Below are positions 18,030-40,256 of a stretch of DNA of 64,000 bases, in pieces. This DNA comes from Escherichia coli. GTDB taxonomy: Bacteria; Pseudomonadota; Gammaproteobacteria; Enterobacterales; Enterobacteriaceae. Position numbers and translations under genes: made by a program. Numbering within the stretch: the stretch's first letter is position 1; every line of letters starts with the position of its first letter. Under the pieces are notes generated by a model that worked only from the letters and a program-made list of their open reading frames with translations, made no database searches and was not told where the DNA came from. Location: the NCBI RefSeq assembly GCF_048403405.1, contig NZ_CP183129.1, one strand, 5' to 3'.

Positions 18030-18055
18030 GTTTTCAATATGAATTAAGGTTTTCT

Positions 18056-19279: not shown

Positions 19280-20013
19280 AAAAGATAAGCATCCCTGAGC
19301 GTATATATTATCCATTGCCTGAAGCAGCAAAGAAGCTGGGATGTACGCTTAATGATATATATCATTTTGCTGCTATAGGTGCTTTGAATATTTCTGTTTA
19401 TTTTCCAAACTGTCATCCATGTAAATCGCTAGTTATACCAAAATCATTAGTTGAAAATATTGATGTTGATTCAGGTGGGATGTTGCAAGGGGATCGCTGG
19501 GTAATTACAGGGATGAAGCCTGTTGGTAGCGATTTTGAATGGGTAAATTATTTTGGTGTGGCTTCTTATCTTGCAAAGAATTTTTGCGGTTTCTTCTATC
19601 TAAATCGGGAAAGTTTTTCTGAACTTGAATTTATTGGCAATGATGCAAGGATAGTATCATCTTTTTTTTCAACTCGTCCTGAATCAGAAAACTGGGAATG
19701 TCAAATTATGAGTGATGGGGCTATTGAGATCGACAGAAGGTTTTTATGTGTAATGGCTAAGGATTTGGAGCATATCAAAGATGTTGGAACCATGCCTGGA
19801 AGAAAAATGGGAGAATCGCCAAAAACTCTTGCGAAGAAAGCTGAGTTGATCCCTGCATTAATCAAACTAATTCCAGAAATGGATGATATAGATATTGGAA
19901 CTGCTCCAGTTGCTAAAGTGATCGCTGTTTTAGAGGCTGCGGCAGCGATGAAAGGGGTGTTTCTTCCCGCAACAGATAAGAATACGTGGGCTAAATACTT
20001 AGGGCGAACGTGA
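19276..20013 (+). CDS. Hypothetical accessory protein, AT-rich, between int and alpA
   Basis: 245 aa ORF whose start overlaps the int stop (ATGA); no motif I recognise; Ala-rich C-terminus. Confidence 0.55.
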   Translation: MKKISIPERIYYPLPEAAKKLGCTLNDIYHFAAIGALNISVYFPNCHPCKSLVIPKSLVENIDVDSGGMLQGDRWVITGMKPVGSDFEWVNYFGVASYLAKNFCGFFYLNRESFSELEFIGNDARIVSSFFSTRPESENWECQIMSDGAIEIDRRFLCVMAKDLEHIKDVGTMPGRKMGESPKTLAKKAELIPALIKLIPEMDDIDIGTAPVAKVIAVLEAAAAMKGVFLPATDKNTWAKYLGRT

Positions 20014-20102
20014 TATCACATATAAAATATGTGATATCACCTAAATATTCTAAGCATATTATCAATATGCTCTCGAACGATAATAAACGAGGGCATATCC
20101 AT

Positions 20103-20324
20103 ATGAGCAAAGTTAAATCATCGCAAGACCAATTTGATCGCATCATTCGTGAGGAGGAATGCCGACGCCTTACCGGTATTTGCCGAACGACGCGTTATAT
20201 GATGGAAAGGAAAGGGGTGTTTCCAGCCCGTCGTCAGTTGGGGGCTCGTTCTGTCGGTTGGTTGCTGTCTGAGGTTAATGATTGGCTTGAACGTCAACCC
20301 AAAGCACAACTGAAATCGGCGTAA
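20103..20324 (+). CDS. alpA: AlpA-family transcriptional regulator (excisionase-like HTH)
   Basis: 73 aa from MSKVKSSQDQ with RBS gaggg; RLTGICRTTRYMMERKGVFPARRQLGARSVGWLLSEVNDWL matches the AlpA family pattern. Confidence 0.8.
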   Translation: MSKVKSSQDQFDRIIREEECRRLTGICRTTRYMMERKGVFPARRQLGARSVGWLLSEVNDWLERQPKAQLKSA

Positions 20325-20673
20325 GGTGAGTTATGGTATATAAAACAAAGGCGACCGGGGGCGGTCGCCAATGGATACACACTAAACTTGAACGCATCAC
20401 CAACAATGCCACATTTGCGGCTGGTGGGCAATGTGATCAGTCAGATTTGGTTCGTTCCAAGGTTTGCAACGAGAGCTTTTTCCTGTGCTCTTTAAGGAAT
20501 TTCTCAAGAGCAAACGAACAAGGTGCGAATCTTTCTGATTCATGTTCATGCGCTATATTTTTGCGTCGTCTCTTACGAGTTGGTGATGGTGTTTTGGTTG
20601 ATTCTGTGTCGCTCATGGTGCTGTCCTGTAAAGCAATGCGCCTGCGTTCCTCAAACTATGGCGCTGATAGTGG

Positions 20674-20979
20674 CTATTCCTGCCCTTTGACCTTGCGTCG
20701 CTGGAGTTCTTCACGCGCGACGGTGACGAGTTGCCCGATCTCCTCGGCGGCTTTGACTCCGATTTTTTCAACCTGCGCTAGGGCATCGAGCGAAGAAACC
20801 AGGAGGTTTTCTCCGCTTCCTTCTGCCTGGCGGCGGGCGATTTCACCGCGCATGGCGGTTACTATGAATCCGGCGTTGCTTTCACCGTCCAGTTTTACGG
20901 ATTCCATGCCTTCAATAACATCATGCGGGATCCGAGCTGTCAGTGATTGTGATTTTGCGTTTTTTGAACCTGTAGCCAT
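20674..20979 (-). CDS. Putative small DNA-binding regulator, possibly ribbon-helix-helix
   Basis: 101 aa from MATGSKNAKS with strong RBS gagga; LTARIPHDVIEGMESVKLD resembles an RHH strand-helix; divergent from the downstream module. Confidence 0.5.
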   Translation of the reverse strand: MATGSKNAKSQSLTARIPHDVIEGMESVKLDGESNAGFIVTAMRGEIARRQAEGSGENLLVSSLDALAQVEKIGVKAAEEIGQLVTVAREELQRRKVKGQE

Positions 20980-20994
20980 CTGTAATCCTCTCAA

Positions 20995-21175
20995 TGAAAG
21001 TGTAAGACAATATACACATAAAAAGTCTTACATAAAAGCATTGACATGTAAGCCACCTATAAATAAAGTTACTTACACCTTGTTAATGCAAGGTGCAGAA
21101 ACGACGAAACCCCGCACTGTAGGAGCAGTAACGGGGCTTCTAACCACCAACGATAGCAAGATTATCGAGGCAGCT
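20995..21175. promoter_or_regulatory. Divergent promoter region with an array of TGTAAG/CTTACA half-sites
   Basis: TGTAAG at 21001 and 21047, CTTACA at 21027 and 21072, forming two inverted-repeat pairs; TTGACA at 21041. Confidence 0.45.
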
Positions 21176-21379
21176 ATGAGAAATCATACCATACACCCGC
21201 AAGGGCGGGACTCGTACAACCTGAATAAATACATCTGGCGTTTTATCGCCCTGAGCACCGCACAACCGCGCGTGATTCACATCGTGGCCACCAGCGAACA
21301 GGAAGCACGCCAGCAATCCCCGGCTGGCTGCGTGATGGTATTCGCCGCCCGCATTCGTCAGGGGGGGTGCCATGCCTGA
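21176..21379 (+). CDS. Small hypothetical protein (67 aa)
   Basis: ATG at 21176 preceded by RBS gagg; retained portion of the 348-aa track ORF, which is otherwise antisense to the regulator gene. Confidence 0.4.
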   Translation: MRNHTIHPQGRDSYNLNKYIWRFIALSTAQPRVIHIVATSEQEARQQSPAGCVMVFAARIRQGGCHA

Positions 21380-21692
21380 TATGTCAAATTACCAGTACCT
21401 GATTAATCCGCATTTTAACTGTGAGCATGATATTGCTAAAAAGGTTTATTCCGCTGCGGATGGGGCTACTGACAATATATCAATGGCTGTTGCGTCAATT
21501 GGTAGCCTGATGTGGCATGCGTCAGAAAATGAGGAATATGACGCAAAGGCCATGCGCATTGATATGGGTAATATCGGTTTGTTACTGGCAATGCTTGGAC
21601 ATTTTGATATTTCGTTACGGTGCACCATTGAAAATGCCACAGATGCATTAAATGCCATAAAGAAAGCGAATACTGATTCAAATCGGGGATAA
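21372..21692 (+). CDS. Hypothetical protein (106 aa)
   Basis: ORF in the replication module, co-directional with primase; no recognisable motif. Confidence 0.5.
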   Translation: MPDMSNYQYLINPHFNCEHDIAKKVYSAADGATDNISMAVASIGSLMWHASENEEYDAKAMRIDMGNIGLLLAMLGHFDISLRCTIENATDALNAIKKANTDSNRG

Positions 21693-21698
21693 ATAATC

Positions 21699-21998
21699 AT
21701 GAGAACATATTTATCTGGCTTGACTGCCAGCGGTTATGCACACCCTAAAATTATCCCCGGCGCTATTTATCTGGATAAGAACGGTAACAGAGTAACGGTA
21801 AAAGAACTGATGTTTGACCGTGTTTATTTTATTCGTGATGGCTATTCATTTCATAGTTCGCTGAACGTGGAGATCTTTATTTGCAGATTCCGGCGGGAAA
21901 TCCCGCTTTCCAGAAATAACCATGTGTCATGTATGGATGTTGATAAAAAACTACAGGAACTGAAAAACATGATTGCCGCGTGGAGAGAGCAGAAATGA
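21699..21998 (+). CDS. Hypothetical protein (99 aa)
   Basis: ORF whose stop overlaps the primase start (ATGA coupling). Confidence 0.5.
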   Translation: MRTYLSGLTASGYAHPKIIPGAIYLDKNGNRVTVKELMFDRVYFIRDGYSFHSSLNVEIFICRFRREIPLSRNNHVSCMDVDKKLQELKNMIAAWREQK

Positions 21999-23812
21999 AA
22001 AAAGCGCCAAATTTAAAACACCAGCCGCGTGACAAAATGACGGAAGTCATCATTTTTGCGGGTAGTGATGCGTGGGCACATGCGAAGCAGTGGCAGGAAC
22101 AGGACGGGCGACTGGCAGGCGATAACGTGCCACCTGTCTGGCTTGGAGAGCAACAACTTGCCGAACTGGACAACCTGCAAATTGTACCGGACGGACGCTA
22201 TCGCGTGCGTCTCTATCAGGCGGGGTTATTGCGTCCGGGGCTTGTTAATACCATCGGGCAGAAACTGGCAGCGGCAGGTGTCAGGGATGCTGATTATTAC
22301 CCTGAAGGAATGCACAGCCAGAAACGGGAGAACTGGCGCGAATATCTGGAACGTGAGCGGGGAGAGCTGGCGGAAAAGAAAAAGGTAGTTGAACTGCCTG
22401 TAAAGAAAAAAGAGCGGGTAAAAGACGATAACGCTTCATCACTGGCGCTTAACCAGATGGGAGCAAGTCAACGCGGCGAAGTTCTCCTGGCACATTATGG
22501 CGGTGAACTGGCGATTCATGCCGACTCTGACACTGTTCACCATTACAACGGCGTTGTATGGGAGCCAGTACAGGATAAAGAATTACAGCGAGCTATGGCG
22601 CAGATTTTCATTGATGCGGAGATCAGCTATTCGCAGAACGCCATTAAATCGGCGGTCGATACCATGAAGTTAAGTTTGCCTGTAATGGGGAATACAGCCC
22701 GTAACCTGATTGGATTCAGTAACGGGGTATTTGATACCAGAACAGGTAATTTTCGGGAGCATAACAAAAACGACTGGTTGTTAATTGCCAGTGAATTACC
22801 TTTCAGCCCACCAGCAGAGGGGGAAACGCTGGCAACACATGCGCCGAATTTCTGGAAGTGGTTACGCCGTTCGGTGGCTGAGAATGACCGCAAGGCGGAT
22901 CGCGTACTGGCGGCATTATTCATGGTGCTGGCGAACCGGTACGACTGGCAGTTATTCATTGAGGTAACAGGTCCAGGGGGAAGTGGTAAAAGCGTGATGG
23001 CGGAGATTTGCACCATGCTGGCGGGTAAGGCTAATACAGTATCAGCAAGCATGAAGGCGCTGGAAGATGCAAGGGAACGTGCGTTAGTGGTTGGCTTTTC
23101 TCTGATTATCATGCCGGATATGACCCGCTACGCTGGTGATGGGGCAGGGATTAAGGCCATTACAGGCGGTGACAAGGTGGCAATTGACCCGAAACACAAA
23201 GCTCCCTACTCAACGCGTATTCCGGCAGTAGTGCTGGCGGTTAACAATAACGCCATGTCATTCAGTGACCGCAGCGGGGGGATCTCACGTCGTCGGGTGA
23301 TATTCAATTTTTCGGAAGTTGTACCGGAGAACGAACGTGATCCGATGCTGGCGGAAAAAATAGAAGGTGAGCTGGCGGTAGTGATTCGCCATCTGCTTAC
23401 ACGGTTTGCTAACCAGGACGAAGCCAGACGCCTGTTATATGAGCAGCAGAAATCTGAAGAAGCACTGGCGATAAAGCGAGAGGGGGATTCGCTGGTGGAC
23501 TTCTGCGGCTATCTCATGGCGTCGGTAATGTGTGATGGCCTGTTAGTGGGTAATGCTGAAATTGTGCCATTCAGCCCGCGCAGATATCTCTATCATGCCT
23601 ATCTGGCTTATATGAGGGCACATGGGTTTGGTAAACCTGTAACACTGACGCGCTTCGGTAAAGATATGCCGGGGGCAATGGCGGAATATGGCAGGGAGTA
23701 TATGAAACGGAAAACGAAGCACGGTTTGCGTTCAAACGTGACACTGACGGAGGAATCAGAAGACTGGATGCCATCATGTGTATCGGTCACTAATGACGAT
23801 AGCAAAAATTAA
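21995..23812 (+). CDS. Primase-helicase of the phage/plasmid P4-alpha type (PICI pri-rep)
   Basis: About 605 aa; Walker A GPGGSGKS in the C-terminal half; followed directly by the iteron array. Confidence 0.8.
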   Translation: MKKAPNLKHQPRDKMTEVIIFAGSDAWAHAKQWQEQDGRLAGDNVPPVWLGEQQLAELDNLQIVPDGRYRVRLYQAGLLRPGLVNTIGQKLAAAGVRDADYYPEGMHSQKRENWREYLERERGELAEKKKVVELPVKKKERVKDDNASSLALNQMGASQRGEVLLAHYGGELAIHADSDTVHHYNGVVWEPVQDKELQRAMAQIFIDAEISYSQNAIKSAVDTMKLSLPVMGNTARNLIGFSNGVFDTRTGNFREHNKNDWLLIASELPFSPPAEGETLATHAPNFWKWLRRSVAENDRKADRVLAALFMVLANRYDWQLFIEVTGPGGSGKSVMAEICTMLAGKANTVSASMKALEDARERALVVGFSLIIMPDMTRYAGDGAGIKAITGGDKVAIDPKHKAPYSTRIPAVVLAVNNNAMSFSDRSGGISRRRVIFNFSEVVPENERDPMLAEKIEGELAVVIRHLLTRFANQDEARRLLYEQQKSEEALAIKREGDSLVDFCGYLMASVMCDGLLVGNAEIVPFSPRRYLYHAYLAYMRAHGFGKPVTLTRFGKDMPGAMAEYGREYMKRKTKHGLRSNVTLTEESEDWMPSCVSVTNDDSKN

Positions 23813-23824
23813 ACTTATGGAATA

Positions 23825-24049
23825 ACTGTTCACCACTGTTCACCCTGTCATAAATATCTTTTATATCAGTATATTATAGGGTTAACAGTTATTTATGAAC
23901 TGTTCACCAAACTATTCACTGTTCACCTTTTTGATTGTTTATTGAGCTTCAAGGGTGAACAGTGGTGAACAGTTGGTGAATAGTTTTTGTGAAACTGTTC
24001 ACCCCTTAACCTTATGAATTAAAAGATAAAATATCAAAAGGTGAACAGG
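23825..24049. repeat. Candidate origin of replication: array of about 9 ACTGTTCACC / GGTGAACAGT iterons with AT-rich spacers
   Basis: Direct copies at 23825, 23835, 23899, 23918, 23994; inverted copies at 23954, 23964, 24040; degenerate copies at 23909 and 23975; immediately 3' of the primase gene. Confidence 0.75.
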
Positions 24050-24196
24050 TGAAGGGTTAAAACGCAAAAATTTTAATTTACTGCTGTGAGATAAAGACTA
24101 TGACAGTAAAGCACACAAAAACACGCGCTTGATTTGACCGAATACTGGTTAAAAATGACTACAAATTAGATAAATTAGATAAAATAGGAAGAAATA

Positions 24197-24457
24197 ATGC
24201 CGATTCTGACGCATGAAATAAACAATTATTTTGATCAATTCGGACTTCATGATATTGCTTCAATGCCTACCACTCAGTACCGTCAGGCCCTTGCAAATGG
24301 TGGTTTACTGTGGATTGATCATCATGATTTTATTCGTAGCACGCTATCAGATGAAATCCTTGCAACAAATCAAGAGCAGGTTAATGTTTTGATTGAGCAT
24401 TTGCAGGTTTTAAGGAAAAAAATGCCACTACCTCCTAATTGGATGAGTGAGAAATGA
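24197..24457 (+). CDS. Hypothetical protein (86 aa)
   Basis: ATG at 24197 with RBS aggaag; convergent with the two-gene operon. Confidence 0.55.
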   Translation: MPILTHEINNYFDQFGLHDIASMPTTQYRQALANGGLLWIDHHDFIRSTLSDEILATNQEQVNVLIEHLQVLRKKMPLPPNWMSEK

Positions 24458-24459
24458 AT

Positions 24460-24490
24460 TATATGGCCTGGCTCTTTGCCAGGCCATATA
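24460..24490. terminator. Bidirectional terminator: perfect 13 bp inverted repeat between convergent stop codons
   Basis: tatatggcctggc-tctttg-ccaggccatata located exactly between the stops at 24455-24457 (+) and 24492-24494 (-). Confidence 0.75.
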
Positions 24491-24491
24491 C

Positions 24492-25001
24492 TCAAAGCAT
24501 TGTTAACAAGGCGGACGCACCAGCACCAACGAGACTGGCTACCGTACTATTATTTAGTAAATCCTTAAGCAAATTTTTTGCCTGAGGATCTTGTGATTGA
24601 GAAACTTTTTCAACAAGTTCAGTTATGCTGAGATTTACAATAAGATTGTTATGCTCACCGAGTTGAACCTGTGTACCGGATATGTTACCAATGTTAAATG
24701 TATTTTGGCTAGATTGTTTTGGTTTATGTTCATTAGCAGTCAGATTCTCGACTTTTAATGTAAGCATGTGAGGGTGATTAGTACCAACATTGAGTGTACC
24801 TCCTGGTAAAAATGACATATCAATTACTTTTAATATTATTTCCCCCTTCCCTAGTTTTTGAGTGATTTCATCTCCAATATTAATATCTGGTTCTTCAGTA
24901 TAAGGGATTAGCACTTTTTTTTCAGCTGAGTTTCTTTTCCCCTTGTATTCAACTCCTGCGATTGTGAATTTTTCTGGATATGCCATGACGTTAAGATCCA
25001 T
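24492..25001 (-). CDS. Candidate system gene B: 169-aa protein with hydrophobic Gly/Ala-rich C-terminal tail
   Basis: ATG (rc of 24999-25001) with RBS gaggag 7 nt upstream; 27 bp after gene A; C-terminus STVASLVGAGASALLTML; shares a C-terminal module with gene A. Confidence 0.7.
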   Translation of the reverse strand: MDLNVMAYPEKFTIAGVEYKGKRNSAEKKVLIPYTEEPDINIGDEITQKLGKGEIILKVIDMSFLPGGTLNVGTNHPHMLTLKVENLTANEHKPKQSSQNTFNIGNISGTQVQLGEHNNLIVNLSITELVEKVSQSQDPQAKNLLKDLLNNSTVASLVGAGASALLTML

Positions 25002-25030
25002 TATGTTGCTCCTCGTGATCGCTTTTGCGT

Positions 25031-25807
25031 TTAACTAGTAGATTTGAAAGTGTATTTTGTCTGTGTGTTAAGGTTTGATATTAGAGCTTCATAGTTTTCT
25101 TTACTCAGTAAGTTTTTTGAGTAGGCCTTCTTAAGAAGGTTTTTTGAGAGAGTAATAATTTCTTTTTCACCAGTTGATGCAATTTTTGAGAAGAACTCAG
25201 AGAGCTCTTGTATATTAATATTGTTATTTGTACCAAGTTGTACGTATTGGCTATTTACAGTAGCTATGTTGAATATGTTTTGTTTTGGATGCGTTTTTTT
25301 TAGCTTTTCAATTTCAGCATGTTCTATGATTTTTTGAGAGATACTTTCAATATAACCACTAACGTCTTTTTTTTCTGGGAAGGAAAACCCATCACCTCTT
25401 AATATTTTATCTGTTTCGGCCATTTCATAGTAAAGCCTGCGAATCATCACAAGTAATAGTAATTTAGCCTCCTCGATTGACTCCTCTATTGAGAATTGAC
25501 ATTCAATTGCTAACGCGGAGGTCTGCTCTAAAACAATTTCTGAGTTATTTTCAATGTAAGGATTGATAAAACCATTCCAAAAAATTTGAACGGGAGTACC
25601 TTTAAATGCCAAACCTTGATAGCATATTTCTGTTCCATCATATGCAGTAACTTTCATGGGGGGGCCTGCATTGAAAAATCGCCATCTATGAATCAGTTTG
25701 GTTAATCTTTCGTCAATCTCCCGAACTAATTTATAAGTCCTTTTGAACAATGGGGATGGTCGCATCCCAGGAACAGCAAGAATTTCTTTTGTCACTTGAA
25801 TCTCCAT
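25031..25807 (-). CDS. Candidate system gene A: 258-aa protein, no recognisable motifs
   Basis: First gene of the two-gene minus-strand operon; Lys/Asn/Ile-rich, AT-rich coding sequence; segment KQNIFNIATVNSQYVQLGTNNNINIQELSEFF is paralogous to gene B. Confidence 0.7.
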   Translation of the reverse strand: MEIQVTKEILAVPGMRPSPLFKRTYKLVREIDERLTKLIHRWRFFNAGPPMKVTAYDGTEICYQGLAFKGTPVQIFWNGFINPYIENNSEIVLEQTSALAIECQFSIEESIEEAKLLLLVMIRRLYYEMAETDKILRGDGFSFPEKKDVSGYIESISQKIIEHAEIEKLKKTHPKQNIFNIATVNSQYVQLGTNNNINIQELSEFFSKIASTGEKEIITLSKNLLKKAYSKNLLSKENYEALISNLNTQTKYTFKSTS

Positions 25808-26054
25808 AGTTTATCAGCATTTTTGTAAATTATTTGTGTGTTAACATTCAAGACTGTTCGTAACAAAAATACCTTATTTACATCAATTTTTTGATCCATA
25901 TCTTAAATAGTGGCACTCAGACGTGAGCCGCCACTGTTGCCGTCCGATCCCCTGCGCGATGCCGGGTTGATCTGCGAGATGCCGAGAGTGTCGGGCGGCG
26001 CTCCCTCCGTGTTGGTTTCACGTCCTGAATCTTAACCAATACGAGAAAACCTTC

Positions 26055-27224
26055 ATGAAGAAATTAATCGAGCTCCGCCAGCAAAAAAACGCCCTGAAAA
26101 ACCAGATGCGATCCCTGCTGGAAAAAGCCGACAGTGAAAACCGCAGCCTGAACGATGACGAGGGCAAACAGTTTGATGAACTGCGTGCAAAAGCTGATTC
26201 CCTCGATACAGACATTTCCCGCCTCGAGTCTGTGGCTGATGAAGAACGCAGCAAGCCAGGAACGGGCATCCAGAAAGTATCATCTGATGAATTGCGTAAC
26301 TACATCGTAACCGGAGATGTGCGATCTCTGTCCACCAGCACTGACAGCGGCAGGGATGGCGGATATACCGTAATTCCTGAGCTTGATCGCGAAGTCATGC
26401 GCCAGCTACAGGATGACAGTGTTATGCGCGTGATCGCGACCGTGAAGACTGCAAAATCAAATGAGTTTCAGAAACTGGTTTCCACTGGCGGCGCAACTGT
26501 AGGACGAGGCACAGAAGGCAGCGCACGCAGTGAAACCAACACCCCGAAAATTGAACGCGTAACCATCAAGCTGAACCCGATCTACGCCTACCCGAAAACC
26601 ACGCAGGAAATCCTAGATTTTTCAGAGGTGGATATTCTGGGCTGGTTATCCTCCGAAATTGCCGACACGTTCGCCAGCACCGAAGAGGATGATTTTGTTA
26701 ATGGCAACGGTAACGGCAAGCCGAAAGGCTTCATGGCTTACACCCGTGCGGCGACCAGTGACAAAACCCGCGCTTTTGGCACCATTGAAAAAATGGTAGC
26801 GGCAAGTGGAACCGCCATTACAGCGGACGAACTGATCGACATTCTCTACAAGCTGAAAGCGAAATACCGCAAAAATGCCGTCTGGGTGATGAACTCGGGC
26901 ACGGCAGGGACACTACAGAAGCTGAAAAATGAGAACGGCGATTATATCTGGCGCGACAGCCTTAAAGAAGGTGCGCCGGATATGTTGCTTGGTCGTCCTG
27001 TTTACTGCCTGGAGTCCATGCCGGACATCGGCGCAGGAAAAGCACCGCTAGCGGTTGGCGATTTCAGTCGTGGTTATTTCATCGTTGATCATGTAACAGG
27101 GATTCGCACCCGACCGGACAACATTACTGAACCCGGATTCTACAAGGTCCACACGGATAAATATCTGGGCGGTGGTGTGGTGGATTCAAACGCCATCAAA
27201 ATTCTGGAAATGAAAGCTGGCTAG
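26055..27224 (+). CDS. Major capsid protein, HK97 fold, with N-terminal coiled-coil delta/scaffold domain
   Basis: 389 aa; coiled-coil N-terminus then conserved MCP blocks (LLGRPVYCLESMP, GDFSRGYFIVDHVTGIRTRPD, NAIKILEMKAG). Confidence 0.85.
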   Translation: MKKLIELRQQKNALKNQMRSLLEKADSENRSLNDDEGKQFDELRAKADSLDTDISRLESVADEERSKPGTGIQKVSSDELRNYIVTGDVRSLSTSTDSGRDGGYTVIPELDREVMRQLQDDSVMRVIATVKTAKSNEFQKLVSTGGATVGRGTEGSARSETNTPKIERVTIKLNPIYAYPKTTQEILDFSEVDILGWLSSEIADTFASTEEDDFVNGNGNGKPKGFMAYTRAATSDKTRAFGTIEKMVAASGTAITADELIDILYKLKAKYRKNAVWVMNSGTAGTLQKLKNENGDYIWRDSLKEGAPDMLLGRPVYCLESMPDIGAGKAPLAVGDFSRGYFIVDHVTGIRTRPDNITEPGFYKVHTDKYLGGGVVDSNAIKILEMKAG

Positions 27225-27278
27225 TCATGAGTAAGGAGGAGGCTGCGGCCTCCTTTTTCAGCTTTATGGAGTACACCG

Positions 27279-27839
27279 ATGAAAAACACCGATTTTGAAA
27301 TCCGCACATCTGAACTGACCGCCAGCAATAAAAAGCTGGTGGGGTATGCCGTTCGCTGGAACAGCCTTTCAGAAATTATCTGGGACGAATTCCGCGAACA
27401 GTTCACGCCGGGGGCTTTTGCTGACTATCTGGCGGCGGGTAATGATGTGCGCTGCCTGTATGAGCATGACTATACCCAACTGCTGGGGCGCACCAAATCC
27501 GGCACTCTGGTACTGACTGAGGATAACACCGGGTTACGTTTTGAACTGACACCGCCGGATACCCAGCTTGGAAAAGATGTGCTTACGCTGGTGGAGCGTG
27601 GCGACATTACAGGAATGAGCTTTGGTTTTCGCGCATTATGCGAGGAGTGGAGTATCGCGCAAAAACCGTATTTGCGTACCGTAACCGCCGCTGAACTCCG
27701 TGAAATCACAATAACGTCGATGCCTGCTTATCCAGAATCTGGCGTGGAGATTGCCCACCGTTCGTTGTTTGCACAGCACCCTGAATTATGCCCGACAGGA
27801 AATAATCGTCATCGCTGGTCTGAGCTGGCGGGGTTGTGA
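27279..27839 (+). CDS. Prohead maturation protease, HK97 family
   Basis: 186 aa; pattern FEIR...GYAVRWN...GAF...LYEHD...LGRT...GMSFGFR...MPAYPE typical of HK97 prohead protease. Confidence 0.8.
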   Translation: MKNTDFEIRTSELTASNKKLVGYAVRWNSLSEIIWDEFREQFTPGAFADYLAAGNDVRCLYEHDYTQLLGRTKSGTLVLTEDNTGLRFELTPPDTQLGKDVLTLVERGDITGMSFGFRALCEEWSIAQKPYLRTVTAAELREITITSMPAYPESGVEIAHRSLFAQHPELCPTGNNRHRWSELAGL

Positions 27840-27840
27840 T

Positions 27841-29055
27841 ATGTGGTGGCCTTTTAGTCGTAAAAAAAGCGAGCAGCGTAACCTGTCCATTGATGATTTT
27901 CTGGCGCTGTCCGGCGTACCGAATACCGGATCCGGAGAATATGTTTCTGCCGGGACGGCTGAATCATTGCCTGCAGTGATGAATGCGGTTTCTGTCATCG
28001 CTGAGGCGGTGGCCACGATGCCGTGTTATCTGTATCTGGTACGTAATGACAAGGGCAGGGAGGCGCGGGAATGGCTGGACAGTCACCCGGTAGATATTCT
28101 GCTGAATGAGCAGCCTAATTCGTGCCAGACACCTTACCAGTTTAAACGCACAATGATGCGTCACTGCCTGCTGAACGGTAACGCCTATGCGGTTATTGAG
28201 TGGGGGCAGGACGGGCAGCCAAAATCACTTCATCCTTATGCGCCGGGGTGTGTTGTACCGGAACGCACAGGCGCACACAAATACCGCTATACCATCACCG
28301 AACCCTATACAGGAACGGTGCGCACGTATTTACAGGAAGAAGTTCTGCATCTCCGCTATGCCTCGGATGATGGCTTTCTGGGGCGCTCCCCCGTCACGAT
28401 TTGCCGTGAGGCACTTGGGCTTGGCCTTGCTCAACAGCGCCACGGAGCCAGCATTATGAAAGATGGCATGATGGCGGCAGGGATTATCACGTCAGGCGAA
28501 TGGCTGGACGGCGTGAAAGGTAAACAGGCATTGGATGCTCTGGAACGCTACAAGGGGGCGAAAAATGCCGGAAAAACGCCAATCCTTGAAGGGGGCATGG
28601 ATTACAGGCAACTGGGAATGAGTAACCAGGATGCGGAATGGCTGGCCTCCCGTCGCTTCTCCATTGAAGACATCGCCCGCATGTTCAACGTATCGCCTAT
28701 TTTTCTGCAGGAATACAGCAACAGCACCTACAGCAATTTCAGCGAGGCAAGCCGCGCGTTTCTGACCATGACAATGCGCCCGTGGCTGGCGAACTTCGAA
28801 CAGCAAATCAAGGCCGCTTTGCTGGTGGCTTCTCCCGTACCTGGTACCCGTTATCTGGTTGAGTTTGATTCAGCCGATTTATTACGCGCCACACCCACCG
28901 AACGTTATGCCACGTATGAGAAAGGGATTAAGAACGGGATCATGAATCCGAACGAAGCCCGTGAGCGTGAGGGTATGCCGCCGCGTGAAGGTGGTGATGA
29001 GTTCAGCCAGGCATGGAAACAGACTGTGGAAATTAAAGGGAGAAAAGATGAGTGA
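27841..29055 (+). CDS. Portal protein, HK97 family
   Basis: 404 aa from MWWPFSRKK, starting 2 nt after the protease stop; the track ORF's upstream extension overlaps the protease. Confidence 0.8.
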   Translation: MWWPFSRKKSEQRNLSIDDFLALSGVPNTGSGEYVSAGTAESLPAVMNAVSVIAEAVATMPCYLYLVRNDKGREAREWLDSHPVDILLNEQPNSCQTPYQFKRTMMRHCLLNGNAYAVIEWGQDGQPKSLHPYAPGCVVPERTGAHKYRYTITEPYTGTVRTYLQEEVLHLRYASDDGFLGRSPVTICREALGLGLAQQRHGASIMKDGMMAAGIITSGEWLDGVKGKQALDALERYKGAKNAGKTPILEGGMDYRQLGMSNQDAEWLASRRFSIEDIARMFNVSPIFLQEYSNSTYSNFSEASRAFLTMTMRPWLANFEQQIKAALLVASPVPGTRYLVEFDSADLLRATPTERYATYEKGIKNGIMNPNEAREREGMPPREGGDEFSQAWKQTVEIKGRKDE

Positions 29056-29350
29056 AGCCAGAATTACACCTGATGAAGTCAGGGCACATCTTCGACTTGA
29101 TGATGATTTATCCGGTGAAGGCGAACTTCTGAAAATGTATACCGATGCGGCGCTGGAAGCCTGCCAGAAGCATATCGGGAAACGTTTTGAAGACGGGCTG
29201 GAATTTACCCCGGCAATGCGTGTTGGTTGCCTGATGTACATCGCTTTCCTGTACGAGAACCGGGAAGCGGTTTCACCAGTGGAGCACTCGGAACTGCCTA
29301 TGGCTATTTCTGCGCTCTGGTCAGTTTATCGTGACGTAGGGGTGTACTGA
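29048..29350 (+). CDS. Head-tail connector (gp6-like) protein
   Basis: 100 aa, MSEARITPDEVRAHLRLDDDLSGEGELLKMYTDAALEACQKHIGKRF; start overlaps the portal stop. Confidence 0.7.
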   Translation: MSEARITPDEVRAHLRLDDDLSGEGELLKMYTDAALEACQKHIGKRFEDGLEFTPAMRVGCLMYIAFLYENREAVSPVEHSELPMAISALWSVYRDVGVY

Positions 29351-29790
29351 TGCCGTGGCAACCATTAAGGCGATGCACTGAGCCTGGCTGTAATAAGCGC
29401 GTGAAGTCCGGCAAGTGTGAAGAGCACAGGCGGGCTGCATGGCGTGCAGAGGATGCCAGACGGGGACACCGCCGCGCGCGCGGGTATTCCCGACAGTGGG
29501 ACAAATACCGCGCCCTGTACCTGAGCAAAAACCCGTTATGCGTGCGTTGTCTGGCTAAGGGGATTTATACGCCAGCTCTTGTGGTGGATCACATCATTCC
29601 CATCAATGGCGGCGGTGATGTTCTCTTCTGGCCTGAGTGGAATCACCAGGCATTGTGCCAGACGTGCCACAACCGTAAGACGACACGGGAAGATCCAGCC
29701 ACGAAAGCAAACCGTAAAGCGGGCATGTATCACGAGCAGGAAGAACGGGCGGCACACCGTAACGACTGGATGTATGGCGATGATGACTGA
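29350..29790 (+). CDS. HNH endonuclease (cos-packaging accessory nuclease)
   Basis: 146 aa; Cys-rich HNH core CVRCLAKG...VVDHIIPINGGGD...NHQALCQTCHNRKT. Confidence 0.85.
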   Translation: MPWQPLRRCTEPGCNKRVKSGKCEEHRRAAWRAEDARRGHRRARGYSRQWDKYRALYLSKNPLCVRCLAKGIYTPALVVDHIIPINGGGDVLFWPEWNHQALCQTCHNRKTTREDPATKANRKAGMYHEQEERAAHRNDWMYGDDD

Positions 29791-29960
29791 ACAGGAGCAA
29801 ACCAGGCTGATACGTGGACTGATAAGGCAGCGTGACACATGGAAGACACAGGAGACAGAGCACAAAGCCAACAGGACAGGGCGCACAAAACTCACCACAG
29901 CGAAGCGATTAACCGACCGTGACCGCGAGGTCATGGAATGTTTTCGCAATCGCTGGTGAG

Positions 29961-30026
29961 GCCGTCAGAGGGGGTGGGGGTGGTTTTCAGGACGAAACCG
30001 TCCCTGCCGGACACCGACCGCCCCCT
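29961..30026. other. Candidate cos/packaging site between HNH and terS
   Basis: G-tract gagggggtgggggtgg and complementary C-tract ccgccccctc flanking palindrome ggacgaaaccgtcc, in the 290 bp gap upstream of terS. Confidence 0.35.
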
Positions 30027-30078
30027 CAAATTTTTGTGCACGGTAATTTTTTTGAAAATAATTGGGCGAAAAAAGAAC

Positions 30079-30435
30079 ATGGCAAGACCACCAAAAGCCC
30101 CCGCTTACCTGGATGAAATCGCGGTCAGGCAGTGGAAGGAAAAATCGCGCCAGCTTTCCGGGCGGGAAGACCTTACCCCCGCCGACTGGAGCAATCTGGA
30201 ACTGTATTGTGTTAACTACTCCATATACCGCAAAGCCGTCGAAGACCTTGCGACGCGCGGGTTCAGCATTGTTAACAGTCAGGGCAGCGAGAGCAGAAAC
30301 CCCGCACTGAGCGCAAAGGCTGACGCAGAAAGAATAATGATCAAAATGGCTTCTTTGCTGGGTTTTGACCCGGTAAGCCGTCGCAGAAATCCACCGGAAA
30401 CAGAGGAAGAGGACGAACTTGACCGCCTGGCATGA
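30079..30435 (+). CDS. Terminase small subunit (P27-family-like)
   Basis: 118 aa from MARPPKAPAYLDEIAVRQWKEK; directly upstream of and overlapping terL; acidic C-terminus. Confidence 0.75.
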   Translation: MARPPKAPAYLDEIAVRQWKEKSRQLSGREDLTPADWSNLELYCVNYSIYRKAVEDLATRGFSIVNSQGSESRNPALSAKADAERIMIKMASLLGFDPVSRRRNPPETEEEDELDRLA

Positions 30436-32080
30436 GTACGCAGAAGGCGTAAAAAACGGCAAAATTACGGCCTGTAAACGACTGAAACAGGCCGTTAAAC
30501 GGTATTTTTCTGACCTTGAAAACTCCCTTTACACGTTCGATCCGGAGGTCGTGGAGCGGTTTATTGCCTTTTCCCGGGTGTGTCCGCACGTAAAAGGCGC
30601 AATGCGCGGTAGTCCCATTGAACTGGAGCCGTGGCAGCAGTTCGCCTTTGCCTGCATCCTGGGCTTTAAGGTTAAGGCCACCGGACGGCGCAAATACACC
30701 AGCGCATTCATTGAAGTACCGCGAAAAAATGCCAAATCCACGGTCGCCGCTATCCTGGCTAACTGGTTTCTGGTTATGGAAAACGGGCAGCAGGATATTT
30801 ACACCGCCGCCGTGAGTCGTGATCAGGCGCGGATCGTGTTTGATGATGCGCGTCAGATGTGCCTTTTATCCCGACCGTTACGAAAGCGGGTAAATATTCA
30901 GGCACACAAGGTGATACACCCGAAAACTAACAGCCTGTTAAAGCCACTGGCAGCAAAAGCGGCAACCATTGAAGGTACAAATCCGAGTCTTGCCATTGTG
31001 GATGAATATCACCTGCACCCTGACAACGGGGTTTATTCCGCACTTGAGCTGGGGATGGGGGCGCGTCCGGAGGGGCTGTTATTTGCCATCACCACATCGG
31101 GGAGCAACGTTGTTTCAGCCTGTAAACAACACTATGACTATTGCTGTCAGATACTGGATGGTGAAGAGATGAACGAATCCATGTTCGTTCTGATTTACGA
31201 GCTGGATGATGAAAGCGAGGTTGACGATCCGGCCATGTGGATAAAGGCGAATCCAAATATCGATGTTTCCGTCGATCGTGAAAAACTGGCCTCAACCATC
31301 CAGAAAGCGCGGGGTATTCCGTCGCAGTGGGTGGAAATGCTCACCAAGCGATTCAATATCTGGTGTCAGGGGGCTACGCCGTGGATGGGTAACGGTGCAT
31401 GGGCGGAGTGCGCCGGAACGTTCGCGGAGGCGGATTTATACGGGCAGGAGTGCTACGCGGGACTGGACTTATCATCAACCAGCGATATTTCCAGCGTGTG
31501 CTATGCCTTTCCGGTCGGTAAAAAGATTATGCTGGTTTCCCGTCACTATCTGCCGGAATTTCAGCTACAGAACCCCGCCAATAAAAACCGCGCCATCTAT
31601 CGCCAGTGGGTAAAGGCGGGCTGGATACGCACAACACCGGGTGACTGCATTGATTATGACCGTATCCGTGATGACATCATGGCGGATGCAGAGAATTTCA
31701 ATATCAGGCTGGTGGGCTTCGATACATGGAACGCCACGCACCTGAGGACGCAGCTACAGGGGGCAGGATTTGAGGTGGAGCCGTTCCCGCAAACATACCT
31801 TCGTTTCAGTCCGGCGGCGAAATCGTTCGAAGTTTTTGTTAACCGGAAGGTGATTGTGCATCGTGGTGATCCGGTGCTGGCCTGGTCAATGAGTAATGTT
31901 GTGATGCAGAGTGACGCGAACGCCAATATCAAGCCGAACAAGAAAAAATCATCCAACAAGATAGACCCGAGCGTTGCGGCGCTGATGGCGTTTGGCACAT
32001 TCCAGGCAGAGCATGAGGAATTTGCATTTGATATGAGCGACAGCCACAAAGAGCGACTTGCGGCGTTTGATGGGGTATGA
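30419..32080 (+). CDS. Terminase large subunit
   Basis: 553 aa; ATPase N-terminal domain and nuclease C-terminal domain typical of TerL. Confidence 0.85.
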   Translation: MTAWHEYAEGVKNGKITACKRLKQAVKRYFSDLENSLYTFDPEVVERFIAFSRVCPHVKGAMRGSPIELEPWQQFAFACILGFKVKATGRRKYTSAFIEVPRKNAKSTVAAILANWFLVMENGQQDIYTAAVSRDQARIVFDDARQMCLLSRPLRKRVNIQAHKVIHPKTNSLLKPLAAKAATIEGTNPSLAIVDEYHLHPDNGVYSALELGMGARPEGLLFAITTSGSNVVSACKQHYDYCCQILDGEEMNESMFVLIYELDDESEVDDPAMWIKANPNIDVSVDREKLASTIQKARGIPSQWVEMLTKRFNIWCQGATPWMGNGAWAECAGTFAEADLYGQECYAGLDLSSTSDISSVCYAFPVGKKIMLVSRHYLPEFQLQNPANKNRAIYRQWVKAGWIRTTPGDCIDYDRIRDDIMADAENFNIRLVGFDTWNATHLRTQLQGAGFEVEPFPQTYLRFSPAAKSFEVFVNRKVIVHRGDPVLAWSMSNVVMQSDANANIKPNKKKSSNKIDPSVAALMAFGTFQAEHEEFAFDMSDSHKERLAAFDGV

Positions 32081-32367
32081 CGAGAATGACTGAAACTGAT
32101 CTACTAAAAATAATTCGCCGCATTACCGGAATCAGTCAGCAGCCTGACGAACAGGCTACACAGCCGGACAGCGTGATAGCCGAAAATTACGCGCGTGTGG
32201 TGGCTGAGGTGATGCGCCGTGACGGTATTGAGCTTAACGGCGTGGATATGCGCAACATACGAACCAGAGTCCTTGAGTTGCTGGCATACCGTCGCCGTTC
32301 TCAACAACGGAGGGAGAGCGCGAAAAATACTTACCAGTGGAAGAAGCCGGAACGACTGCGGCGGTAA
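32077..32367 (+). CDS. Hypothetical protein (96 aa), translationally coupled to terL
   Basis: ATGA overlap with the terL stop; basic C-terminus; possibly a head-completion protein. Confidence 0.5.
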   Translation: MTRMTETDLLKIIRRITGISQQPDEQATQPDSVIAENYARVVAEVMRRDGIELNGVDMRNIRTRVLELLAYRRRSQQRRESAKNTYQWKKPERLRR

Positions 32368-32408
32368 CTTGCTGATATTCCCGATAACGCAAAATTGCGT
32401 TGGCTGGC
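32366..32408 (+). repeat. Copy 1 of a 43 bp imperfect direct repeat in the right-end non-coding region, followed by palindrome TGCAAATTTGCA (32414-32425)
   Basis: taacttgctgatattcccgataacgcaaaattgcgttggctgg versus copy 2 at 32669-32711, about 35 of 43 identical by eye. Confidence 0.6.
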
Positions 32409-32668
32409 ATAGTGCAAATTTGCACGATGACCTAACCCATTGACTTTTCTTCAATCCTCAATTTTGAGGAGGCCGGAAGATAAAAAACTGTCAAAACTTG
32501 TCATGCAAAACGTTACCAGCACGGCTATTGATTTATTCGGCCCCTGCAACTGCTCCCAGAATGGTGGGGATCTGAAATCCGACCCTGAAAAAGTGCGCAA
32601 AAGTGGTACGCAAAAATTAGCGTCCAGCCACAGCCACCAGCTAGACAGAACGCCCAGAGCATTGTCAG

Positions 32669-32711
32669 TAACTGGTTGATATTCCCGACAGCCCCAAAAT
32701 GGGTTGGCTGG
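32669..32711 (+). repeat. Copy 2 of the 43 bp imperfect direct repeat, followed by palindrome TTGCAGATCTGCAA (32720-32733)
   Basis: taactggttgatattcccgacagccccaaaatgggttggctgg. Confidence 0.6.
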
Positions 32712-33058
32712 TGGGTGAGTTGCAGATCTGCAACTCGACCATGAAACTACGGAAACTACCCGTAGTTTGGGTAGTAAGAGTAACACCCAGATTCTGGGGC
32801 TTACTCGCGATACCCAAATAAAGGGTATCGGTGGACGAAATATTATTTCTCATATGTGAGCACCGAAGGCGGAATTCCGCCCTCGGTTATCTATCATGCA
32901 CAGGGAGAAGCAGGGCAAAACTCTTGCCATGGCGTCTTCCGGACCGCTCACCACACCGTTTTTATCCCCATTAAAAATGAAAAAACACATCACTGCGGAG
33001 ACATAACCACTGGCAGGTATCTATTCTATTTATTATTGTTCGGTTTCGTTCGTGCTTA

Positions 33059-39279: not shown

Positions 39280-40256
39280 GAGTGGGTTCCGTACTCTTTG
39301 TTTAGTGTGATTGTGACAGGCGTTTCACCGCCGTCTGTAAAGCGTATGCCCCGACAGCTGTATGCATAGCGATAAATTCCAGCAGGCCGGGACGCCGGTC
39401 TATTTTGCCCCAGAGTGTCAATGTTAGACTTGACGGACATTGTGCAGCGATCTGCTGCTATCCTCCGGCAAAAAACAAAATATACCTTCGTTGCGCCAAT
39501 GTCACCTTTTCCGCAGCGCAAAAACTGCGTCAGGGAGGACGAGGTCGCACATTATAACGATTTCGTAGCAATTGGCAGCTAAATACTGGTCTTATCAGGG
39601 AAGATAATCAACAGCTAACATGTAAATAACCTTCAACACCGTGTAATTTGCAACAAGCCGCACAATTCACGAAATTAGCGCCATCATCGACGGAACTTCT
39701 TATAACGTAAGGCTAAAAGCTGTAAAGCCAGCCCTGCGAAGATGAGGGGCTGTAATGAGATAATCTTCACAGACCACAAATAATGTAGGGATGCCAGGAT
39801 CGCGACAAGATAGACGACATTACGCAGCGGTTGCTGAGGATTACGCAATTTTCACTGTATCGTCTGGATAGATGTGAATGCTAAAGCACGCAAAATCAAC
39901 CGTCTGACAATGCTCAGCATCAAATACGTTCGAGTGGTTAATTTGTAGGCAAATAAAATCAGATTATTCACCCCATGGTACCAGAAATCAGTAACAGGTT
40001 AAGCGTAGCGTCGCCCAGGCAAAGCACCATAAACCTAACAGGCGACGGAGGCGTATCAATAATGGCTGTTTAGTGGAGTAACAGTGCGCATCAATTTATG
40101 GTCAGTCGAAATCATGACGTTCCAGTTTGGATGATGTTGTACAACTTCATGACCAAGATGTTCGACGAAAGCTGTCCGGCTAACCGCTTTTCCCGTTAAC
40201 CGATTGAATAATGATTTCAAAATGAGTTCCCTCTCTTATTAATCCTTGCTAAATGG

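What the first reader, a model, noticed from the sequence alone, without database searches (positions are those of the whole stretch)
29774..30078. HNH-terS interval: candidate cos site and a possible hidden small basic protein
The roughly 290 bp between HNH and terS contains a G-tract (gagggggtgggggtgg) and complementary C-tract (ccgccccctc) flanking a short palindrome (ggacgaaaccgtcc) at 29961-30026, the position where HNH-dependent cos phages often carry their cos site. An overlapping reading frame (29774-29959, about 61 aa, MAMMTEQEQTRLIRGLIRQRD..., very basic) begins inside the HNH 3' end and may be a real small protein or a shadow ORF.
Basis: inference. Interest (0 to 1): 0.4.

Follow-up and report, generated by a model that had tools for sequence, protein, structure and literature searches.

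The report
Satellite cos site plus small gene
The gap between the HNH nuclease and small terminase genes of a 15-kb capsid-forming phage satellite very probably holds its DNA-packaging cut site, built like that of phage HK97, and the overlapping small reading frame is a real, conserved gene of unknown role; the result is a useful annotation rather than a surprise.

Summary
The sequence features are present as described, with small coordinate shifts (terS starts at 30079, not 30080).

**Context.** The region is the packaging end of a roughly 15-kb cf-PICI-type satellite inserted between yhdJ and fis.

**cos site: supported by homology, not by mapped ends of this element.**
- The 119-nt non-coding gap aligns collinearly with the mapped cos regions of HK97 and Burkholderia phi644-2.
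- It has three parts: a G-tract, a C-rich core (GACCGCCCC|CTCAAATTTTT) and an A/T block (ATTTTTTTGAAAATAA).
- These blocks are invariant or nearly so across relatives whose synonymous sites are saturated.
- The predicted top-strand nick is about 30024|30025, within about 6 nt. The predicted 10-nt 3' overhang is about 30015-30024.
- A particle-derived assembly of a related satellite lacks exactly 69 nt centred on this core.
- The short palindrome is not conserved. The G/C-tract complementarity shows no compensatory changes.

**Small ORF: a real gene.**
- PGAP already annotates it, and it matches phrog_3173.
- It is intact in 110 of 123 distinct related sequences, with dN/dS about 0.2-0.3.
- It always lies between HNH and terS.
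- Its conserved start is 29783, giving 58 aa.
- Its function is unknown, and it is absent from Pasteurella relatives.

Verdict: a new member of a known kind, of modest interest.

The parts
29350..29790 (+). HNH endonuclease gene (146 aa), HK97 gp74-type
   Evidence: Pfam HNH E = 8.7e-10 and phrog_144 E = 5e-45. 36% identical to HK97 gp74, E = 6e-17.
29783..29959 (+). Small basic protein gene, 58 aa from the conserved ATG (PGAP calls 29774, 61 aa). Its start overlaps the HNH stop by 8 nt (ATGACTGA).
   Evidence: PGAP hypothetical protein. phrog_3173 E = 4.8e-26. Intact in 110 of 123 distinct relatives. dN/dS about 0.2-0.3 with an in-frame indel. Invariant residues M1, E3, L13, R17, R46, E52, F54, R55, N56, R57. 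Always sits between HNH and terS.
29968..29995 (.). Conserved G-tract block (GAGGGGGTGGGGGTGGTTTTCAGGAC), about 30-57 bp upstream of the predicted nick. Candidate upstream cos element, cosQ-like by position only.
   Evidence: Conserved in TerS-ascertained relatives. A G-run followed by an A/T-rich stretch occupies the same position in Pmp8, ST64B, phi644-2 and HK97.
29990..30003 (.). Short palindrome GGACGAAACCGTCC inside the variable spacer (29996-30011); not a conserved feature
   Evidence: Pairs are broken in about 40-55% of 42 distinct relatives, with no compensatory changes. The spacer is variable.
30012..30036 (.). cosN-like core CACCGACCGCCCCCTCAAATTTTTG. Predicted top-strand nick at 30024|30025 (alternative alignment registers reach 30030|30031). 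Predicted 10-nt 3' overhang 30015-30024 (CGACCGCCCC).
   Evidence: In alignment A2 the first base of HK97 and of phi644-2 fall in the same column, which is window position 30025. The phi644-2 overhang CGCCCGCTTC is published (PMC2920897). The HK97 cut and 10-nt 3' overhang are published (PMC11331095). The Ant assembly gap is centred here.
30039..30061 (.). A/T-rich block (CACGGTAATTTTTTTGAAAATAA); candidate TerS-binding site
   Evidence: TTTTTTTGAAAATAA is invariant in 42 distinct relatives. The HK97 TerS site at +15..+29 maps to 30039-30053 with the T-runs in register (PMC11331095).
30079..30435 (+). Small terminase gene (118 aa), P27 family
   Evidence: Pfam Terminase_4 E = 1.6e-23. TIGR01558 E = 6.7e-18. 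PGAP annotation.
30419..32080 (+). Large terminase gene (553 aa), HK97 gp2-type
   Evidence: 28% identical to HK97 gp2 over about 500 aa, E = 4e-49. PGAP annotation.

Best explanation
The interval belongs to the DNA-packaging module of a roughly 15-kb capsid-forming phage-inducible chromosomal island (cf-PICI type) inserted between yhdJ and fis.

**The cos site.** The 119-nt non-coding stretch 29960-30078 is the element's cos site, of the HK97 type, which depends on an HNH nuclease and leaves 3' overhangs. The proposed mechanism, inferred from HK97, is as follows:
1. The satellite's TerS binds the invariant A/T block (30039-30061), just downstream of the cut.
2. TerL and the HNH nuclease make staggered nicks in the C-rich core. 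The top-strand nick is near 30024|30025 and the bottom-strand nick about 10 nt upstream.
3. This leaves a 10-nt 3' cohesive end of roughly CGACCGCCCC.
4. The conserved G-tract, about 30-57 bp upstream, is the last conserved sequence drawn into the capsid before cutting. It probably acts as an upstream termination or positioning element. That role is speculative.

**The small ORF.** It is a genuine gene encoding a 58-aa, basic protein predicted to form two helices. It is probably translationally coupled to HNH through the overlap ATGACTGA. Its fixed position next to cos suggests an accessory role in packaging, but that role is untested, and relatives from Pasteurella lack the gene.

**What is shown and what is inferred.** Shown: sequence conservation, homology to mapped cos sites, and coding constraint on the small ORF. 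Inferred: the nick positions, the protein-DNA contacts, and the roles of the G-tract and the small protein.
For: **Element identity.**
- Gene order is int...primase...capsid-protease-portal-connector-HNH-small ORF-terS-terL, between yhdJ and fis, with no tail or lysis genes.
- The same organisation is described for cf-PICIs from Proteobacteria (bioRxiv 10.1101/2022.09.08.507074).

**HK97-type machinery.** TerL is 28% identical to gp2 (E = 4e-49). HNH is 36% identical to gp74 (E = 6e-17).

**cos homology.**
- The pairwise alignment with the HK97 cos region is collinear, with z = 4.3; 0 of 500 shuffles reach the score.
- In the 8-sequence alignment, HK97 +1 and phi644-2 base 1 share one column, which is window position 30025. 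The HK97 TerS site at +15..+29 maps onto the T-run block.
- The phi644-2 10-nt 3' overhang CGCCCGCTTC is published (PMC2920897).
- The HK97 cut site, its 10-nt 3' overhang and its TerS site are published (PMC11331095).

**Conservation.** The blocks are invariant or nearly so in 42 TerS-ascertained distinct intervals. They are also recognisable in Pasteurella Pmp8, Salmonella ST64B and more distant cf-PICI loci.

**Physical hint.**
- vB_KppS-Ant was sequenced from particles with Nextera XT and is more than 99% identical to a region of K. pneumoniae DSM 30104 (PMC8006926).
- Its linear assembly lacks exactly the 69 nt that correspond to window 29994-30062.
- The cf-PICI of that same strain is reported to carry cohesive cos ends (bioRxiv 10.1101/2025.02.11.637232).

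**Small ORF.**
Against: **cos site.**
- No packaged-DNA ends have been mapped for this element or for any E. coli relative.
- I found no virome contig that ends at the predicted site.
- The Ant assembly gap could reflect poor coverage or assembly across G/C runs. An isolate-genome contig also breaks at the G-tract (L328).
- The satellite's TerS has no detectable BLASTP similarity to HK97 gp1, so transferring the TerS-site position rests on DNA alignment alone.
- Alignment registers differ by up to 6 nt.

**Small protein.**
- It has no family with a known function and no structural neighbour.
- It is missing in Pasteurella Pmp8, which keeps the cos blocks.
- Among the closest relatives the few changes are mostly non-synonymous.
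Confidence: 0.75

Rival explanations
1. The G-tract and C-tract pair in the mRNA, and the resulting hairpin followed by AAAUUUUU acts as a transcription terminator or attenuator, or as a translational regulator, between the small ORF and terS. This could hold instead of, or alongside, a cos function.
For: The predicted RNA hairpin has a free energy of -42.9 kcal/mol and z = -2.65. The outer stem can still pair in nearly all 42 relatives. A U-run follows 3 nt after the stem.
Against: There are no compensatory double changes. Pairing persists only because both tracts are conserved in sequence, and position 29970 is mismatched in 26 of 42. The inner hairpin is not conserved. The terminator scan did not call the G-tract/C-tract hairpin. 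Rfam gave no match. The same blocks coincide with the mapped DNA ends of HK97 and phi644-2. terS and terL lie downstream and are needed for packaging.
Confidence: 0.1
2. The element packages by a headful (pac) mechanism, or from a cos site elsewhere, and the conserved blocks are promoter, operator or other regulatory DNA for terS-terL.
For: No ends have been mapped for this element. The interval lies directly upstream of terS, where regulatory sites could sit.
Against: No sigma-70-like promoter was found on the + strand. HNH-associated HK97-type terminases are cos enzymes (PMC9410871). Cohesive ends are reported for a related cf-PICI. The block order matches two mapped cos sites.
Confidence: 0.05
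3. The small ORF is a shadow frame, kept open only because the underlying DNA is constrained by cos-flanking sequence or by the 3' end of HNH.
For: It is short and overlaps HNH. It has no Pfam or NCBIfam family. Changes among the closest relatives are mostly non-synonymous.
Against: Only 8-17 nt overlap HNH. Between subtypes pS is 0.56-0.75 against pN 0.24-0.41, giving dN/dS about 0.2-0.3. Conserved residues carry synonymous third-position changes (searches compared by eye). The indel is in frame. The start context ATGAxTGA and the stop position are conserved. A profile search finds the family only as complete small proteins in the same gene context.
Confidence: 0.05

Closest known systems
HK97 cos site (HNH gp74 / TerS gp1 / TerL gp2; 10-nt 3' overhang; TerS site at +15..+29)
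   Same: It lies between the HNH gene and terS. It has the same order of parts: a G-run upstream, a core GACCGCC...|G/C-T, then a T-run about 23-29 bp downstream of the cut. TerL and HNH are homologous.
   Different: TerS is a 118-aa P27-family protein with no BLASTP similarity to the 161-aa gp1. The A/T block has a different sequence (ATTTTTTTGAAAATAA against CTAACCCGATTTTTT). The ORF between HNH and cos in HK97 is unrelated to the small protein here. The ends of this element are not mapped.
Burkholderia phages phi644-2 and phiE125: cos with 10-nt 3' extension CGCCCGCTTC
   Same: P27-family TerS, 34% identical to the satellite's. HNH sits immediately upstream. The core GACCGCCCGCTTC|GTCAAATTTT aligns without gaps to CACCGACCGCCCC|CTCAAATTTTT. 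There is a G-tract upstream and an A/T block downstream.
   Different: These are full-size phages of about 48 kb. They have no small ORF between HNH and cos. The A/T block sequence differs (GAAAAATGAAATTTAA).
cf-PICIs (EcCIEDL933, KpCIDSM30104)
   Same: Same gene content and order. The O157:H7 element at phoQ is about 85% identical across HNH-terS and carries the same small ORF and cos blocks. KpCIDSM30104, sequenced as vB_KppS-Ant, has the same blocks.
   Different: This element sits at a different site (yhdJ/fis). Its small protein has a 7-8-aa insertion relative to the 50-aa forms. The texts I could read do not give a mapped cos sequence for any cf-PICI.
Phage lambda cos (cosQ-cosN-cosB)
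   Same: It works in a similar way: an upstream element, a nicking site with partial dyad symmetry, and a downstream small-terminase binding region next to the terminase genes. This comparison rests on my own knowledge of lambda.
   Different: Lambda has 12-nt 5' overhangs, no HNH partner and unrelated small terminase and binding sites. This element is not a member of that family.

Membership tests
HK97-type (HNH-dependent, 3'-overhang) cos site | Lies immediately upstream of terS and downstream of an HNH endonuclease gene | tested here: met
   HNH is 29350-29790 and terS is 30079-30435. HK97 and phi644-2 have the same layout.
HK97-type (HNH-dependent, 3'-overhang) cos site | Encoded TerL and HNH are homologous to HK97 gp2 and gp74 | tested here: met
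   E = 4e-49 and E = 6e-17.
HK97-type (HNH-dependent, 3'-overhang) cos site | DNA similarity to the mapped nicking cores | tested here: met
   Pairwise z = 4.3. The HK97 and phi644-2 cut positions share one column of the multiple alignment.
HK97-type (HNH-dependent, 3'-overhang) cos site | Packaged DNA has unique ends with about 10-nt 3' cohesive overhangs at this site | not testable with these tools
   Only indirect evidence: the 69-nt gap in the particle-derived Ant assembly and reported cohesive ends in KpCIDSM30104.
HK97-type (HNH-dependent, 3'-overhang) cos site | TerS binds an A-tract-containing site about 15-29 bp downstream of the cut | tested here: inconclusive
   The invariant T-run block is in register with the HK97 site. 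TerS is not detectably homologous to gp1, and binding cannot be tested here.
cf-PICI (capsid-forming phage-inducible chromosomal island) | An island of about 10-18 kb with integrase and replication modules plus capsid-protease-portal-connector-HNH-terS-terL, and no tail or lysis genes | tested here: met
   PGAP annotation of the identical region in E. coli 4621. The criteria are quoted from bioRxiv 10.1101/2025.02.11.637232.
cf-PICI (capsid-forming phage-inducible chromosomal island) | Induced by a helper phage and transferred in its own small capsids joined to helper tails | not testable with these tools
   This needs experiments.
PHROG phrog_3173 (unknown function) | Full-length match to the family profile | tested here: met
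   E = 4.8e-26, residues 4-60 aligned to profile positions 1-57 of 57.
Intrinsic (Rho-independent) terminator | A compact GC-rich stem-loop followed immediately by a U-tract | tested here: not met
   The scan does not call the G-tract/C-tract hairpin. Its loop would be 40 nt, with 3 nt between the stem and the U-run. No covariation supports it.

The most novel reading that the evidence does not exclude
The 58-aa basic protein, restricted to enterobacterial cf-PICIs, is a satellite-specific packaging factor. It would act at the conserved G-tract or on the HNH/TerL nuclease, so that the satellite's terminase cuts only its own cos site. This matters because the nicking core is nearly the same as that of HK97-like helper phages. 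Such a factor would help explain why satellite and helper packaging are mutually exclusive.
Probability: 0.15. Interest if true: 0.55.

Novelty: new member of a known kind. Interest (0 to 1): 0.3.

Why it matters
cf-PICIs are widespread; 514 of 5426 complete E. coli genomes carry a close version of this HNH-terS segment. They package only their own DNA. Knowing the cos anatomy gives a concrete handle for several things:
- engineering or tracking these satellites;
- explaining how satellite and helper packaging stay separate even though the nicking cores are similar;
- annotating satellite ends in virome data.

The small conserved gene beside cos is an untested candidate component of the packaging module. 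None of this overturns current understanding.

Tried and rejected
**Searches for physical ends.**
- A scan of viral contigs for the A/T block returned mostly unrelated AT-rich matches.
- A scan for the G-tract block found relatives, but no contig ends about 30-60 nt past the G-tract. Many locus ends are storage-block boundaries rather than contig ends.
- The Klebsiella phage P12620-1 record ends inside the small ORF and is uninformative.

**Structure and repeats.**
- Rfam gave no relevant match.
- The short palindrome is not conserved and was rejected as a functional element.
- The long-range inverted repeats I1 (29920-34 / 30113-27) and I3 (29932-47 / 30066-81, which covers the terS start) are not conserved in relatives and are probably chance.

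**Function of the small protein.**
- Pfam, NCBIfam, PADLOC and a PDB sequence-profile search gave nothing useful.
- The AlphaFold model (two helices, pLDDT 75) has no Foldseek match in the PDB.

**Other dead ends.**
- I tried to identify which gene is 'hypothetical gene 1792' in the EcCIEDL933 mutagenesis. Cluster-member names gave no EDL933 locus tags, no supplementary files are held, and the journal version is not held.
- My first nick estimate, 30030|30031, came from the pairwise HK97 alignment. The multiple alignment supersedes it with 30024|30025. I keep the earlier figure as the outer bound of uncertainty.

Full report
**1. What is in the sequence**

- The G-tract gagggggtgggggtgg is at 29968-29983.
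- The palindrome ggacgaaaccgtcc is at 29990-30003. It has a 5-bp stem and a 4-nt loop.
- The C-tract ccgccccctc is at 30018-30027.
- The repeat finder reports arms 29968-29977 and 30018-30027 as 10 nt, 90% complementary and 40 nt apart.
- HNH runs 29350-29790. terS starts at 30079, one base earlier than the finding implies. The HNH-terS distance is therefore 288 nt.
- The ORF 29774-29959 encodes 61 aa with pI 10.8.

In the single window these motifs are not statistically remarkable. The G-tract motif with one mismatch is expected 2.8 times and occurs twice. The RNA fold has z = -2.65. The case therefore rests on comparison with relatives.

**2. Context**

The region is 100% identical to chromosomal segments of several E. 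coli strains. In strain 4621, PGAP annotates a roughly 15-kb island between yhdJ and fis-dusB. Its gene order is:
- integrase, regulators and a primase;
- major capsid, prohead protease, portal and head-tail connector;
- HNH, a hypothetical protein, P27-family terS, terL and a second hypothetical protein.

The island has no tail or lysis genes. This is the organisation described for capsid-forming PICIs of Proteobacteria (bioRxiv 10.1101/2022.09.08.507074; criteria in 10.1101/2025.02.11.637232). A version of the HNH-terS segment at 80% identity or more occurs in 514 of 5426 complete E. coli genomes, with up to five copies per genome.

**3. The non-coding gap, 29960-30078**

*Conservation among close relatives.* I collected 80 related loci from IMG/VR using the TerS protein alone, so the sample carries no bias toward any DNA motif. 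Together with the window sequence these gave 42 distinct intervals, which show a clear block pattern:
- GGGGTGGGG..GGTTTTCAGGAC (29971-29995): invariant or nearly so.
- 29996-30011: variable.
- CACC...CCGCC.CCCTCAAATTTTT (30012-30035): conserved.
- TTTTTTTGAAAATAA (30047-30061): fully invariant.
- 30062-30078: variable.

Synonymous sites of the adjacent small ORF differ by 56-75% between the same subtypes. The blocks are therefore under strong selection at the DNA level.

*More distant relatives.* The same blocks can be recognised in:
- more distant cf-PICI loci (L323-L325);
- the Pasteurella 'phage' Pmp8, a 15.3-kb element of cf-PICI layout with TerS 61% identical;
- Salmonella phage ST64B and Burkholderia phage phi644-2, both with P27-family TerS about 35% identical and HNH immediately upstream.

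**4. Comparison with mapped cos sites**

HK97 has a defined cut site and 10-nt 3' overhangs. Its TerS-binding site is at +15..+29 and includes an A-tract at +24..+29 (PMC11331095; PMC9410871). My indexing of the HK97 record reproduces the published T16, C:G 21 and A-tract positions.

For phi644-2 the published cohesive end is a 10-nt 3' extension, 5'-CGCCCGCTTC-3'. It is shared with phiE125, where the paper says this sequence serves as the cos site (PMC2920897). Those 10 nt are the last 10 nt of the record.

The alignments give the following.
- A pairwise alignment of the window interval with the circularised HK97 cos region is collinear, and none of 500 shuffles reaches its score (z = 4.3).
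- In an 8-sequence MAFFT alignment, the first base of HK97 and the first base of phi644-2 fall in the same column, which is window position 30025.
- The HK97 TerS site maps to 30039-30053, with the T-runs in register.

By homology, then:
- the top-strand nick is near 30024|30025;
- the cohesive end is about 30015-30024 (CGACCGCCCC);
- the invariant A/T block is the likely TerS site.

Other alignment registers move the nick by up to 6 nt, to 30030|30031. These positions are inferences, not measurements.

The enzymes fit the same picture. TerL is 28% identical to HK97 gp2 (E = 4e-49), and HNH is 36% identical to gp74 (E = 6e-17). TerS shows no BLASTP similarity to gp1. This is consistent with a shared nicking core and a different TerS site.

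**5. A physical hint from a relative**

vB_KppS-Ant (LR881103, 16.5 kb) was assembled from particle DNA prepared with Nextera XT. It is more than 99% identical to a region of K. pneumoniae DSM 30104 (PMC8006926). Its gene map is that of a cf-PICI. The cf-PICI of that same strain, KpCIDSM30104, is reported to form concatemers through cohesive cos ends.

The linear Ant record ends at ...GGTTTTCAGGAC and starts at ACGAAAAGG.... IMG/VR loci that match both flanks exactly carry 69 further nucleotides between them. These correspond to window 29994-30062 and are centred on the predicted nick.

Transposase-based libraries under-represent the last tens of bases of linear molecules; this point rests on my own knowledge. 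The gap therefore fits unique ends at this site.

The hint is not decisive. An isolate-genome contig also breaks at the G-tract (L328), so assembly failure across G/C runs is an alternative explanation. I found no virome contig ending at the predicted site.

**6. What the complementarity means**

The outer G-tract/C-tract pairing remains possible in nearly all relatives. That is only because both tracts are conserved in sequence:
- there are no compensatory double changes;
- position 29970 is mismatched in 26 of 42;
- the inner palindrome is broken in about half.

The terminator scan does not call this hairpin, and Rfam has nothing. An RNA or terminator role is therefore not supported, although it is not excluded.

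A G-run followed by an A/T-rich stretch, about 30-57 bp upstream of the cut, is shared by HK97, phi644-2, ST64B, Pmp8 and the cf-PICIs. By position it would be the last conserved sequence to enter the capsid before cleavage. I suggest it acts as an upstream termination or positioning element, but that is speculation.

**7. The small ORF**

It is a real gene, and it is not hidden.
- PGAP annotates it as WP_001251187.1.
- It matches phrog_3173, a family of unknown function, over the full profile length at E = 4.8e-26.
- It is intact in 110 of 123 distinct related sequences.
- Between subtypes dN/dS is about 0.2-0.3. There is an in-frame 7-8-codon indel, and ten residues are invariant, including the C-terminal E-x-F-R-N-R.
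- The start codon shared by all subtypes is the ATG at 29783, giving MTEQEQ... and 58 aa. It overlaps the HNH stop in a conserved ATGAxTGA arrangement, which suggests translational coupling.

A profile search of 1.84 billion representative proteins finds only 25 clusters. The three distant members I checked all lie between HNH and a Terminase_4 terS, and the two found on contigs long enough to show the neighbouring genes sit in full cf-PICI-type modules.

AlphaFold predicts two helices (residues 3-38 and 45-55) with mean pLDDT 75. There is no fold match in the PDB and no Pfam, NCBIfam, PADLOC or PDB-sequence hit.

Pmp8 keeps the cos blocks but lacks the gene. The protein is therefore an accessory, not a universal part of the machine.

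The cf-PICI preprint mutated every gene of the EcCIEDL933 packaging module. All mutants abolished transfer except 'hypothetical gene 1792', which severely reduced it. The O157:H7 element has two hypothetical genes in the module: this small ORF and the ORF after terL. I could not determine which of them is 1792.

**8. Verdict**

The proposed anatomy needs correcting. The palindrome is incidental. The C-rich core and a downstream A/T block are the key parts. The G-tract is a conserved upstream element shared with HK97-type phages.

The small ORF is a genuine, already-annotated gene of unknown function that is restricted to enterobacterial cf-PICIs.

This is a new member of a known kind, of modest interest. 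The most useful follow-ups are end-mapping of particle DNA and a nonsense mutant of the small gene.

Noticed in passing
window 32077-32367 (+): A 96-aa ORF directly after terL is conserved in these satellites. It matches phrog_1561 (E = 1e-53, unknown function) and has a weak, sub-threshold PADLOC BrxA hit (E about 0.01). It is the other candidate for 'hypothetical gene 1792', whose mutation severely reduced EcCIEDL933 transfer.
   Followed up: partly
window about 17900-32900 (from L001): The whole island lies between yhdJ and fis-dusB. A distant relative (L323) sits at the same fis-dusB site, whereas the O157:H7 relative sits beside phoQ (L329). I did not look for att repeats or exact island boundaries.
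   Followed up: no
L002 (LR881103.1, vB_KppS-Ant): The source paper describes this record as a filamentous ssDNA prophage, but its gene map is that of a cf-PICI and it is more than 99% identical to a region of K. pneumoniae DSM 30104. It also carries a 765-aa gene after terL that is annotated as a tape-measure protein and is absent from the window element.
   Followed up: partly
L322 (OR544139.1, Pasteurella phage Pmp8); also Pmp7 (OR544138.1, 10.7 kb): These records are deposited as phages. Pmp8 (15.3 kb) has a cf-PICI-type packaging module (portal, head closure, adaptor, HNH, terS, terL) and the same cos blocks, but no small ORF between HNH and terS. Pmp7 was seen only as a TerS hit at 61% identity.
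   Followed up: partly
L327 (Logan SRR19512976 contig, 9.8 kb): In this variant a D5-type primase is followed directly by an 81-aa ORF, a 93-aa ORF containing the small-protein sequence, and then terS-terL. The capsid-to-HNH genes appear to be missing between them, which suggests either a deletion derivative or a different satellite type.
   Followed up: no
L330/L331 (ST64B) and L332/L333 (phi644-2): A Salmonella phage and a Burkholderia phage share an identical 21-nt block, CCCGCGAAAAATGAAATTTAA, just downstream of the cos core, despite their distant hosts. It may be the recognition site of their shared P27-type TerS.
   Followed up: no
HK97 L084 447-698 (record 39346-39597): HK97 also has an unannotated open frame (83 aa from GTG, 67 aa from ATG) between HNH gp74 and the right cos end. 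It is unrelated in sequence to the small protein here.
   Followed up: no
window 29920-29934 / 30113-30127 and 29932-29947 / 30066-30081: Two long-range inverted repeats bracket the cos gap, and the second covers the terS start codon. Neither is conserved in relatives, so they are probably chance.
   Followed up: yes
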